DNA from: Escherichia coli
GTDB lineage: Bacteria; Pseudomonadota; Gammaproteobacteria; Enterobacterales; Enterobacteriaceae
Reading direction: 5' to 3' (one strand)
Assembly (NCBI RefSeq): GCF_003334785.1
Contig: NZ_QOWV01000032.1
DNA: 19,881 nt
Shown here one piece after another: positions 720 to 1,086 of this stretch. The notes beneath the pieces are model-generated. The model saw nothing but the letters and a program-made list of their open reading frames with translations, did not search any database and was not told the origin of the DNA. The position numbers were made by a program, and so were the translations under genes. How positions within the stretch are numbered: the first letter of the stretch is position 1; each line of letters opens with the position of its first letter.

Positions 720-1086
720 ATTAAATTTTTATTTAATTGGTTATTAAAAATGTTTCAATACTTAGAACGCTAATAAAGTGAGTGAGGAATTAATGGTGTT
801 TTGAATATTGAATTTATTATTTTAAGTTCGGTTGTTTGTGTCTGATTTAAAGTAATGGAATTACAAAAAAACAGAATTTTCGTGGGGTGTTTTCAGATGT
901 GAAAATATCCGTGCGGTAGCTATTGCTTTTATTTTTATTGGCGCATAGATAATACATATTCATCATTGCAGTAGTGACTGGTTATACTGCATTTGAAAAT
1001 TATCATCATCAAAAAACGATTATCTGAAGTGATAAGCTTTTTCATTTGATGATAAAGGTTTTAAAACTGGCTGCAGGACAGAAAAA
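720..1086 (+). promoter_or_regulatory. AT-rich leader of the T6SS operon; presumed promoter/regulatory region with several GATAAT-type hexamers
   Basis: Non-coding AT-rich DNA immediately 5' of tssB. Hexamers GATAAT (948-953), ATTATC (999-1004), GATTATC (1018-1024) and TGATAAG (1030-1036) are seen. No confident -35/-10 pair could be assigned by eye. Confidence 0.3.

What the first reader, a model, noticed from the sequence alone, without database searches (positions are those of the whole stretch)
940..1086. GATAAT-type hexamer cluster in the operon leader: possible iron (Fur) or nucleoid-protein control
Within ~140 bp upstream of tssB there are four GATAAT/ATTATC-like hexamers (948, 999, 1018, 1030) in very AT-rich DNA. 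Fur sites are arrays of such hexamers, and Fur control of a T6SS is known in enteroaggregative E. coli (sci-1). AT-rich leaders are also typical H-NS targets. The match to a full 19-bp Fur box is poor, so this is suggestive only.
Basis: inference. Interest (0 to 1): 0.3.

Follow-up and report, generated by a model that had tools for sequence, protein, structure and literature searches.

The report
Palindromic leader upstream of plasmid tssB
The GATAAT-like hexamers in front of this plasmid's type VI secretion operon are real, but most are the two arms of a decayed hairpin-forming palindrome, and the resemblance to an iron-regulator (Fur) site is weak here and untested.

Summary
The hexamers exist: GATAAT 948, ATTATC 999 and 1019, GATAAG 1031, plus GATAAA 1051. 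They are the densest such cluster in the window (P about 0.001 against shuffles).

They are not a canonical Fur array. Four of the five are mirrored arms of a ~57-bp quasi-palindrome (999-1056). In sister plasmids and metagenome contigs it is a perfect 22-bp stem with A6/T6 shoulders, resembling a bidirectional intrinsic terminator, and shows compensatory changes. Here it is decayed (inner stem -2.7 versus about -10 kcal/mol).

Its left shoulder (989-1013) is Fur-box-like. This allele scores 13/19 and 10.5 bits, which is AT-rich background level (P 0.08-0.24). Sister alleles with T at 1004 score 15-20 bits, like genuine E. coli Fur boxes.

The cluster is aai/Sci-2 type. Its chromosomal promoter is published as Fur-independent and AggR-dependent, and that leader lacks this segment. 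The leader has no GATC and no H-NS high-affinity motif.

The plasmid encodes an Rns/AggR-family activator, and every hexamer contains that family's TATC core. Fur control is therefore possible but unproven.

The most conserved leader element lies outside the flagged span: a hairpin plus invariant GTGCGGTAGCTAT at 885-923.

The parts
885..910 (+). Conserved leader hairpin A (GGGTGTTTTCA / GATG / TGAAAATATCC). It lies outside the flagged span but in the same leader.
   Evidence: Predicted separately in every leader variant. 91.8% of cells are paired, against 39-64% in the slid controls. There are 10 cells with changes on both sides, reached by 0/500 shuffles. G.U 16 versus A.C 8. Covariance model R1 finds it in every E. 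coli-type leader fetched. No Rfam family matches.
911..923 (+). Invariant block GTGCGGTAGCTAT directly 3' of hairpin A
   Evidence: Invariant columns in alignments A1 and A3. It occurs once in the window. Its distance to the start codon varies from 62 to about 600 nt across leader types. In EAEC 042 it lies downstream of the mapped AggR-dependent aaiA promoter (PMC6392122).
948..953 (+). GATAAT hexamer 1, which is separate from the palindrome. It aligns with TATAAT/TATATAAT of relatives, so it resembles a -10 element.
   Evidence: It is deleted in the Salmonella Newport plasmid leader. It lies in a 31-bp segment that is tandemly duplicated in L043. The reading as a -10 element is inference only.
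983..988 (+). TATACT, the best -10-like hexamer on the sense strand, immediately 5' of the Fur-like segment
   Evidence: Read from the sequence. It is conserved as TATACT, TATGCT or TATAGT in most sister leaders but is TATGCC in L036 and absent in ST866. The -35 match is only 3/6, so the consensus scan did not call it. Inference.
989..1013 (.). Fur-box-like segment made of overlapping 19-mers 6 bp apart. It contains hexamer 2 (ATTATC 999-1004).
   Evidence: Here it scores 10.5 bits (989, +) and 10.4 bits (995, -), with a best consensus match of 13/19. In alleles with T at 1004 it scores 15.2 bits (L031, L043, L056), 17.5 bits (NMBU, L027, L033) and 20.0 bits (L036). Shuffle P is 0.014 to 0.0003 for those alleles and 0.08-0.16 for this one.
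1000..1024 (+). 5' arm of the quasi-palindrome (TTATCATCATCAAAAAACGATTATC). It contains hexamers 2 and 3 and the A6 tract.
1025..1030 (+). Loop TGAAGT, the centre of symmetry of the palindrome
1031..1055 (+). 3' arm of the quasi-palindrome (GATAAGCTTTTTCATTTGATGATAA). It contains hexamers 4 (GATAAG) and 5 (GATAA of GATAAA) and the T-tract. It also carries the second weak Fur-like hits.
   Evidence: The outer 9 bp, TTATCATCA (1000-1008) and TGATGATAA (1047-1055), are perfectly complementary. The inner stem is interrupted by an A.G mismatch and scores -2.7 kcal/mol here, against -9.3 to -10.3 in NMBU, L027 and L033. Fur matrix scores are 11.8 bits at 1025 (+) and 11.1 bits at 1031 (-).
1075..1089 (+). 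Shine-Dalgarno AGGA and the GTG start codon of tssB
   Evidence: AGGAYAG-N5-7-(G/A/T)TG is invariant in all leaders.

Best explanation
The hexamer cluster is mainly the footprint of a hairpin-forming quasi-palindrome in the tssB leader, not a Fur hexamer array.

Shown:
- ATTATC (999), ATTATC (1019), GATAAG (1031) and GATAA(A) (1051) sit mirror-symmetrically around 1027/1028.
- In sister alleles the same unit is a perfect 22-bp inverted repeat with a 6-nt loop. An A6 tract lies on the left and a T6 tract on the right. This is the anatomy of a bidirectional Rho-independent terminator.
- The symmetry is kept through compensatory changes.
- This window carries a decayed copy, with an A.G mismatch, a 3-nt insertion and a C.A mismatch created by T1004C.

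Inferred:
- The leader is transcribed from a promoter further upstream, as it is in the homologous aai operon of EAEC 042.
- The unit therefore forms a stem-loop in the 5' untranslated region about 30 nt before the ribosome-binding site.
- There it would attenuate or insulate transcription into tssB, or set mRNA stability. The effect would be strong in the perfect alleles and weak in this one.

The left shoulder of the palindrome doubles as a Fur-box-like sequence. The whole AT-rich leader is a plausible H-NS target. These may add trans-acting control, but neither is demonstrated.
For: - Symmetry and folding: minimum-free-energy folds of the window leader pair 1000-1008 with 1047-1055 and 1020-1024 with 1031-1035.
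- Perfect alleles: L027 and L033 fold at about -42 kcal/mol over the leader segment folded. They differ from each other by a compensatory T:A versus C:G pair. ST866/L061 keeps the outer stem through TTAGCATCA/TGATGCTAA.
- Pair counts on 12 distinct alleles: 90.2% of cells are paired, against 35-55% when partners are slid. Four pairs change on both sides (7/500 shuffles). G.U 8 versus A.C 4.
- Terminator anatomy: the consensus scan calls a terminator-like site on both strands in NMBU (7-bp stem, 3 G-C pairs, TTTTTCATTT and GTTTTTTGAT tails). It also calls a long-stem site in L033. Shuffles give 0.1-0.2 sites.
- Inner-stem energies: -9.3 to -10.3 kcal/mol in sister alleles and -2.7 kcal/mol here.
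- The ~55-bp unit behaves as a discrete module. It is absent from L047, whose junction falls at a CATTTGA repeat that flanks the unit in the window. It is also absent from the aai, pFII-FIB and RHB27 leaders.
- It is single-copy and found only in front of tssB on plasmids, in 17 of 5,426 E. coli genomes.
- Transcription through the region is supported indirectly. A conserved, covarying hairpin plus invariant block lies further upstream. In EAEC 042 the mapped AggR-dependent promoter lies upstream of that block, 237 bp before the ATG (PMC6392122; recovered by my scan).
Against: - No transcription start site is known for this plasmid, so it is not shown that the palindrome is transcribed. A promoter inside or after it cannot be excluded.
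- The sequences are few and closely related. Quasi-palindromes can also be made perfect by template-switch mutation without any selection, so the compensatory changes are weaker evidence than they look.
- Most alleles, including this one, are imperfect, which fits neutral decay as well as function.
- In this window the inner stem is too weak for the scan to call a terminator. The whole-leader fold has a z-score of only -1.5.
- A symmetric AT-rich operator for a dimeric protein, Fur included, would also be palindromic.
Confidence: 0.4

Rival explanations
1. Fur operator. Iron-loaded Fur would bind 989-1013, and perhaps 1025-1049, just downstream of a weak sigma-70 -10 element (TATACT 983-988). 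It would repress the T6SS operon until iron is scarce, as at sci-1. This window would carry a weakened allele (T1004C).
For: - Sister alleles score 15.2-20.0 bits, with overlapping hits 6 bp apart, which is typical of Fur arrays. The leave-one-out median of 14 K-12 sites is 14.9 bits.
- Such scores occur 0-0.02 times per kb in AT-rich background. Shuffle P is 0.014 to 0.0003.
- The window's own 13/19 match equals the validated sci-1 fur1 box (13/19) and exceeds fur2 (11/19) (PMC3145626).
- The position immediately after the best -10-like hexamer suits a repressor.
- Hexamer enrichment has P about 0.001.
Against: - In this window the scores (10.4-11.8 bits) are at background level for AT-rich DNA. 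Shuffle P is 0.07-0.24, and background hits occur at 0.55-1.25 per kb.
- The site varies among alleles in both directions (10.4 to 20 bits) with no sign of purifying selection.
- The homologous aai/sci-2 promoter does not bind Fur in FURTA or EMSA and has no hit of 10 bits or more.
- Most other leader types of this T6SS family have no site.
- The promoter is not mapped. If transcription starts far upstream, the site lies inside the transcribed leader.
- The sequence is also constrained by the palindrome.
Confidence: 0.3
2. Binding sites for an Rns/AggR-family AraC activator. The plasmid's own Rns-like regulator would recognise the TATC cores with their A/T-rich 5' tracts. It would activate tssB transcription as AggR activates the chromosomal aai operon, and the neighbouring ANR protein would oppose it.
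For: - The plasmid encodes a full-length Rns/CsvR/CfaD homologue (E = 1e-59 to Rns structures). An ANR gene and a CS22/CS15-like fimbrial operon lie next to it.
- The aai cluster is directly AggR-activated, and the published AggR site is WWWWWWWTATC placed 21-23 bp before the -10 element (PMC6392122).
- Every flagged hexamer contains TATC or GATA. Six consensus sites lie in 899-1061, five of them in 940-1086, against 0.9 expected (P = 0.0003).
- My scan recovers the characterised aaiA promoter as a positive control.
- One site has the right architecture: AAACGATTATC (1014-1024), then 23 bp, then GATGAT (1048-1053).
Against: - The motif is degenerate. The window holds 136 sites, and an equally dense cluster lies in coding DNA near 8459.
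- The site-plus-promoter architecture arises by chance with P = 0.13. It is not conserved, because NMBU and L033 use a different site and a different -10 element.
- The window's leader lacks the homologue of the mapped distal AggR site.
- Only 7 of the T6SS plasmids listed (60 of 81 listed) also appear among the 60 Rns-like-regulator plasmids listed (of 307). These represent two lineages.
Confidence: 0.2
3. Generic AT-rich xenogeneic DNA coated by H-NS, or an inert relic. In this reading the hexamers have no sequence-specific role. The palindrome is a decaying insertion, and the apparent motif cluster is a side effect of base composition plus symmetry.
For: - The 400 bp before tssB are 28% G+C.
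- Silencing of AT-rich acquired DNA by H-NS, including the Salmonella SPI-6 T6SS, is established knowledge. I cite this from memory and did not check it here.
- Most palindrome alleles are imperfect, and one lineage (L047) has lost the unit.
- In this window both the Fur-like match and the inner stem are degraded.
Against: - There is no match with 2 or fewer mismatches to the H-NS high-affinity motif TCGATAAATT anywhere in 718-1086.
- Hexamer and TATC densities exceed composition-matched shuffles.
- The symmetry is kept by compensatory changes in diverged alleles.
Confidence: 0.3

Closest known systems
EAEC sci-1 T6SS promoter, a Fur repressor plus Dam methylation switch (Brunet et al. 2011, PMC3145626)
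   Same: - Both have an AT-rich region directly upstream of tssB.
- Both have degenerate Fur-box matches of 11-13/19 near a weak sigma-70 -10 element.
   Different: - It is a different T6SS lineage. This cluster is aai/Sci-2 type.
- The leader has no GATC sites, so there can be no Dam switch.
- The sequences are unrelated.
- Fur binding has not been tested here.
EAEC aai (Sci-2) operon promoter, AggR-dependent (Dudley 2006; Yasir et al. 2018, PMC6392122)
   Same: - The tssB-tssC-aaiC-type gene order is homologous, and the ribosome-binding region is conserved.
- Both share the upstream hairpin plus the GTGCGGTAGCYAT block.
- Both have an Rns/AggR-family regulator available, here encoded on the same plasmid.
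   Different: - The mapped distal AggR site and its -10 element are not conserved in the window's leader.
- The ~55-bp palindrome and Fur-like segment is absent from the aai leader.
- The aai promoter does not bind Fur.
Bidirectional Rho-independent terminators and leader attenuators
   Same: The anatomy is A-tract, then a stem with G-C pairs, a 6-nt loop, the return stem, then a T-tract. The consensus scan calls it on both strands in sister alleles.
   Different: - It sits inside an operon leader about 30 nt before the ribosome-binding site, not after a gene.
- No alternative anti-terminator structure or regulator has been identified.
- The window's copy is too weak to be called (-2.7 kcal/mol).
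Canonical E. coli Fur boxes (fepA-fes, entC, fhuA, fur, fecI, ryhB and others)
   Same: The sequence is AT-rich and dyad-symmetric with a GATAAT/ATTATC vocabulary. Sister alleles reach 15-20 bits.
   Different: - This allele scores 10.5-11.8 bits, against a leave-one-out median of 14.9 bits for true sites.
- The hexamers are spaced 12-51 bp apart (start to start) as palindrome arms, rather than forming three contiguous hexamers.

Membership tests
Fur-regulated promoter (E. coli Fur box) | A 19-bp box, or an array of three or more hexamers, scoring above background | tested here: not met
   - This allele scores at most 11.8 bits and matches 13/19.
- Shuffle P is 0.07-0.24.
- AT-rich background gives 0.55-1.25 such hits per kb.
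- Sister alleles do meet the criterion, at 15.2-20.0 bits.
Fur-regulated promoter (E. coli Fur box) | The box overlaps the -35, -10 or +1 of the regulated promoter | tested here: inconclusive
   The box abuts the best -10-like hexamer, TATACT 983-988. However, no promoter passes the consensus scan on the sense strand, and no transcription start is known.
Fur-regulated promoter (E. coli Fur box) | Metal-dependent Fur binding (EMSA or FURTA) and iron- or fur-dependent expression | not testable with these tools
   This needs wet-lab assays. As calibration, validated sci-1 boxes score only 7.0-9.4 bits and the validated non-binder sci-2 scores 9.0 bits. Scores in this range therefore cannot decide.
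sci-1-type Fur/Dam epigenetic switch | GATC sites overlapping the Fur boxes | tested here: not met
   There is no GATC in 718-1086.
sci-1-type Fur/Dam epigenetic switch | Orthology to the sci-1 (T6SS-1) cluster | tested here: not met
   The nearest chromosomal relative is the aai/Sci-2 cluster, with aaiC/Hcp2 after tssC. The gene order tssB-tssC-hcp-tssE-tssF-tssG-vgrG differs from sci-1.
Rho-independent terminator or attenuator | A stable G+C-containing stem with a 3-8 nt loop, followed by a U-tract | tested here: inconclusive
   - Sister alleles meet the criterion on both strands, with stems of -9.3 to -10.3 kcal/mol.
- The window copy has the T-tract (TTTTTCATTT) but a 5-bp A-U-rich stem of -2.7 kcal/mol, and it is not called.
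Rho-independent terminator or attenuator | It is transcribed, and it terminates or pauses RNA polymerase | not testable with these tools
   There are no transcript data. Transcription is inferred only from the conserved upstream RNA-like hairpin and the mapped aaiA promoter in EAEC 042.
AggR/Rns-dependent promoter | A WWWWWWWTATC site 21-23 bp upstream of a -10 hexamer with A at position 2 | tested here: inconclusive
   There are six consensus sites (P = 0.0003 against shuffles). Only one has the right architecture: AAACGATTATC, 23 bp, GATGAT. That arrangement arises by chance with P = 0.13 and is not conserved.
AggR/Rns-dependent promoter | A cognate AraC-family activator is present | tested here: met
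   An Rns/CsvR/CfaD homologue (E = 1e-59) and an ANR gene are on the same plasmid.
H-NS-silenced xenogeneic promoter | AT-rich DNA relative to the host genome | tested here: met
   The leader is 22-34% G+C across 651-1100, and 28% over the 400 bp before tssB.
H-NS-silenced xenogeneic promoter | A high-affinity nucleation motif (TCGATAAATT-like) | tested here: not met
   There is no match with 2 or fewer mismatches in 718-1086. The count across the whole window is at chance, 45 against 38 expected.

The most novel reading that the evidence does not exclude
The leader of aai-type T6SS operons may be an undescribed cis-regulatory RNA. It would consist of a covarying hairpin followed by an invariant GUGCGGUAGCUAU block (window 885-923), which is present in every E. 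coli-type leader I fetched. In one plasmid sub-lineage a terminator-like stem-loop follows it, and the 5' shoulder of that stem-loop is a good Fur box. Under this reading, expression would be set by regulated read-through (attenuation or antitermination, or processing), possibly coupled to iron, rather than by simple promoter occlusion.
Probability: 0.15. Interest if true: 0.6.

Novelty: new member of a known kind. Interest (0 to 1): 0.3.

Why it matters
Plasmid-borne T6SSs are now recognised as widespread (PMC13098142), but that survey reports no promoter or regulator analysis, and I found no work on how the E. coli ones are regulated.

- If the Fur-like site works, a conjugative or virulence plasmid would deploy its weapon under iron limitation, as happens in the gut.
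- If the Rns-like regulator is the switch, the T6SS belongs to an ETEC/EAEC-type virulence regulon carried on the same plasmid.
- If the stem-loop acts as an attenuator, natural alleles from perfect to decayed would form a ready-made allelic series that tunes T6SS expression.

For this particular window the practical message is cautionary. A cluster of GATAAT-like hexamers in AT-rich DNA is not enough to call a Fur site.

Tried and rejected
- Dam/GATC switch as in sci-1: there is no GATC in the leader.
- H-NS high-affinity motif: absent from the leader, and at chance across the window.
- Known RNA families: Rfam gives only a sub-threshold eukaryotic snoRNA hit on the opposite strand.
- Sigma-54 promoter: I inspected TGGCAC-N5-TTGCW by eye and found no GG-N10-GC in register. 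The cluster encodes no enhancer-binding protein.
- Sigma-70 promoter on the sense strand in 150-1200: none reaches 9/12. A distal TTGTTA-16-TAGAAT promoter-like site was called in NMBU and L033. By my reading of the window sequence, the corresponding hexamer there is TAGAAC, so the site would not pass in the window.
- Mobile miniature palindrome (MITE or REP-like): the unit is single-copy and occurs only at this locus, in 17 of 5,426 genomes.
- Leaders from other genera (Enterobacter, Rahnella, Erwinia): these are unrelated in sequence, and their Fur-like hits are inconsistent (0-14 bits). They gave no useful footprint.
- A regulator inside the T6SS cluster: none found. The genes are TssA-M, Hcp-like, VgrG, PAAR, DUF6931 and ClpV.
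- ORF 349-717: no family match.
- Co-occurrence of the Rns-like regulator with the T6SS: only two lineages, which is too thin to support a link.
- The first version of the Fur matrix used a wrong site for the fur promoter. I rebuilt it. The candidate scores fell from 12.1-12.9 to 10.4-11.8 bits.

Full report
**Context.** The window is 100% identical across the tested segment (180-1600) to E. coli plasmid pWP7-S17-ESBL-04_2 (NZ_AP022179.1).
- Bases 1 to about 150 are a truncated IS100-family istB.
- ORF 349-717 is a hypothetical protein with no family match.
- 718-1086 is a 369-bp intergenic region of 22-34% G+C.
- tssB starts with GTG at 1087. It is followed by tssC, an Hcp-like gene, tssE, tssF, tssG, vgrG, DUF6931, PAAR, tssA, tssJ, tssK, tssL, tssM and clpV.
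- No regulator is encoded inside the cluster.
- Only 96 of 5,426 complete E. coli genomes carry a relative, about half of them on plasmids.
- The chromosomal relatives are the aai/Sci-2 cluster, with aaiC/Hcp2 after tssC. They are not the Fur-regulated sci-1 cluster.

**The observation.** The hexamers are present: GATAAT at 948, ATTATC at 999 and 1019, GATAAG (5/6) at 1031 and GATAAA (5/6) at 1051.
- Three exact copies start within 71 bp of each other. The next tightest trio in the 19.9-kb window spans 389 bp.
- Dinucleotide-preserving shuffles of 940-1086 give 0.22 exact copies (P = 0.0012).
- Shuffles give 3.35 copies with one mismatch or fewer, against 10 observed (P = 0.0006).
- The cluster is real and non-random, with the caveat that the motif was chosen after looking.

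**Fur scan with controls.** I built a 19-bp matrix from 14 canonical K-12 Fur-regulated promoters: fepA-fes, fepD-entS, fepB-entC, fhuA, fur, fiu, fhuE, tonB, cirA, exbB, fecI, fecA, feoA and ryhB.
- Leave-one-out scores of the true sites run from 7.8 to 20.9 bits, with a median of 14.9.
- The window's leader gives two pairs of overlapping hits 6 bp apart. One pair is 10.5 bits at 989 (+) and 10.4 bits at 995 (-). The other is 11.8 bits at 1025 (+) and 11.1 bits at 1031 (-). The best consensus match is 13/19.
- Against shuffles of the same DNA, the best score has P = 0.07-0.08 for 940-1086 and P = 0.16-0.24 for the wider leader.
- In 346 kb of related background DNA with the leaders masked, stretches under 30% G+C yield 1.25 hits per kb at 10.5 bits or more, and 0.55 per kb at 11.8 bits or more.

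**Why scores in this range cannot decide.** I scored the experimentally characterised EAEC 042 promoters with the same matrix.
- The validated sci-1 fur1 box (13/19) scores 7.0 bits, and the best site in the sci-1 promoter scores 9.4 bits.
- The sci-2/aai promoter reaches 9.0 bits and 12/19. That promoter does not bind Fur in FURTA or EMSA (PMC3145626).
- Sequence scores of 7-12 bits therefore do not separate binders from non-binders.

**Relatives.** I collected 51 tssB leaders, giving 36 distinct 200-nt sequences. They came from this window, plasmids, one chromosome, five other genera and 36 metagenome contigs.
- Alleles that are otherwise nearly identical to the window carry T at position 1004. 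They read GCATTTGAAAATTATTATC and score 15.2 bits (L031, L043, L056).
- NMBU, L027 and L033 score 17.5 bits. L036 (GCAATTGAAAATCATTATC, 15/19) scores 20.0 bits.
- Such scores are absent or nearly absent from background, at 0-0.02 per kb in AT-rich DNA. Their shuffle P values are 0.014 to 0.0003.
- The C1004 allele of this window is rare. It occurs in two complete plasmids and three contigs.
- Leaders that lack this segment have no hit of 10 bits or more. These are chromosomal aai, pFII-FIB, RHB27 and L047. This agrees with the published Fur-independence of sci-2.
- A Fur-box-like site is thus a feature of one plasmid sub-lineage, and it is weakened in this window.

**What most of the hexamers are.** Hexamers 999 and 1051, and hexamers 1019 and 1031, form two nested inverted repeats centred on 1027/1028.
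- In L033 and L027 the unit is a perfect 22-bp inverted repeat: TTATCATCAAAAAA(C/T)GCTTATC, loop TGAAGT, then GATAAGC(G/A)TTTTTTGATGATAA.
- Those two alleles differ by a compensatory C:G versus T:A pair.
- ST866/L061 keeps the outer stem through TTAGCATCA/TGATGCTAA. It keeps an inner stem with a different loop.
- On 12 distinct alleles, 90.2% of cells are paired, against 35-55% in the slid controls. Four pairs change on both sides (7/500 shuffles).
- The anatomy is an A6 tract, a stem with G-C pairs, a 6-nt loop and a T6 tract. That is the anatomy of a bidirectional intrinsic terminator. The consensus scan calls one on both strands in NMBU and a long-stem version in L033.
- Inner-stem energies are -9.3 to -10.3 kcal/mol in those alleles. 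Here the value is -2.7 kcal/mol, because of an A.G mismatch.
- T1004C adds a C.A mismatch to the outer stem.
- The roughly 55-bp unit is missing from L047. The junction there lies at a CATTTGA repeat that flanks the unit in the window.
- The unit is single-copy and occurs only at this locus, so it is not a mobile repeat.

**Is the region transcribed?** No start site is known for this plasmid, but there is indirect evidence.
- Further upstream, at 885-910, lies a hairpin followed by an invariant GTGCGGTAGCTAT (911-923).
- This is the most conserved element of the whole leader.
- It shows 91.8% paired cells and 10 cells with changes on both sides (0/500 shuffles). It contains A-U, G.U and G-C series, with G.U 16 against A.C 8.
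- A covariance model built from it finds the element in every E. coli-type leader, including types where it lies 400-600 nt upstream.
- In EAEC 042 the mapped AggR-dependent aaiA promoter lies upstream of this element, 237 bp before the ATG (PMC6392122). My scan recovers that promoter.
- I infer that the homologous plasmid leaders are also long 5' untranslated regions. If so, the flagged span is transcribed and the palindrome would form an RNA stem-loop about 30 nt before the ribosome-binding site. This step is inference, not shown.

**Another candidate regulator.** The plasmid also carries eatA, a CS22/CS15-like fimbrial operon, an ANR (Aar-like) gene and a full-length Rns/CsvR/CfaD-family AraC regulator (E = 1e-59 to Rns structures).
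- AggR, of the same family, directly activates aai. The published site is WWWWWWWTATC, placed 21-23 bp before the -10 element.
- All flagged hexamers contain TATC or GATA. Six consensus sites lie in 899-1061 (P = 0.0003 against shuffles).
- The motif is degenerate, with 136 sites in the window.
- The one correctly spaced site-plus-promoter arrangement has a chance probability of 0.13 and is not conserved.
- The regulator shares a plasmid with the T6SS in only two lineages.

**H-NS.** Base composition makes binding plausible. There is no high-affinity motif in the leader, and nothing ties H-NS specifically to the hexamers.

**Verdict.**
- The Fur/H-NS interpretation is partly supported at the level of the plasmid sub-family, but not above background for this allele.
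- The best-supported description of the cluster is a decayed, terminator-like quasi-palindrome whose left shoulder resembles a Fur box. It sits in a leader that also carries a more strongly conserved upstream hairpin and block.
- Which trans-acting factor, if any, reads these sequences needs experiments.
- The finding is ordinary in kind, since a weak regulator-like motif in an AT-rich promoter region is common. It has one moderately interesting by-product, the conserved leader elements of aai-type T6SS operons.

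Noticed in passing
window 885-923: A conserved hairpin (885-910) is followed by an invariant GTGCGGTAGCTAT (911-923). Together they are the most conserved part of the leader. They are present in all E. coli-type aai-like tssB leaders I fetched, at 62 to about 600 nt from the start codon. The stem shows covariation and has no Rfam match. This may be an undescribed 5'UTR element.
   Followed up: partly
plasmid NZ_AP022179.1, L065:27053-33018 (outside the window): The same plasmid carries an Rns/CsvR/CfaD-family AraC regulator, an ANR (Aar-like) gene, a CS22/CS15-like chaperone-usher fimbrial operon and eatA. It is therefore an ETEC/EAEC-style virulence plasmid that also carries an aai-type T6SS.
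   Followed up: partly
window 202-210: A run of nine G lies about 50 bp after the truncated IS100 istB and about 140 bp before ORF 349-717. This could be a slippage-prone tract or a junction scar. L032 has a G7 run in its leader.
   Followed up: no
window 13561-16965: RefSeq marks tssM of the identical plasmid as a frameshifted pseudogene. In the window, however, the ORF is open for 1,134 aa. It matches the NCBIfam TssM model only weakly (45 bits, residues 170-340).
   Followed up: no
L043 leader, equivalent to window ~941-971: One metagenome allele has a 31-bp tandem duplication (TTGGCGCATAGATAATACATATTCATCATTG) that doubles the GATAAT hexamer. The Salmonella Newport plasmid has deleted that hexamer instead.
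   Followed up: no
window ~8459-8620: A second cluster of six AggR-consensus-like sites (WWWWWWWTATC) lies within 160 bp, in coding DNA at the end of vgrG. It is as dense as the cluster in the leader.
   Followed up: no
L020/L042 (CFSAN004180G-type leader), -121 relative to tssB: A non-homologous leader type of the same T6SS family carries its own 15.1-bit Fur-like site (TACACTAATAATAATTATC), upstream of the conserved block. In L060 the site is degraded to 11.2 bits.
   Followed up: no
window 349-717: A 122-aa ORF with a GTG start is annotated as hypothetical in RefSeq and matches no NCBIfam family. It lies between the IS remnant and the T6SS leader.
   Followed up: partly
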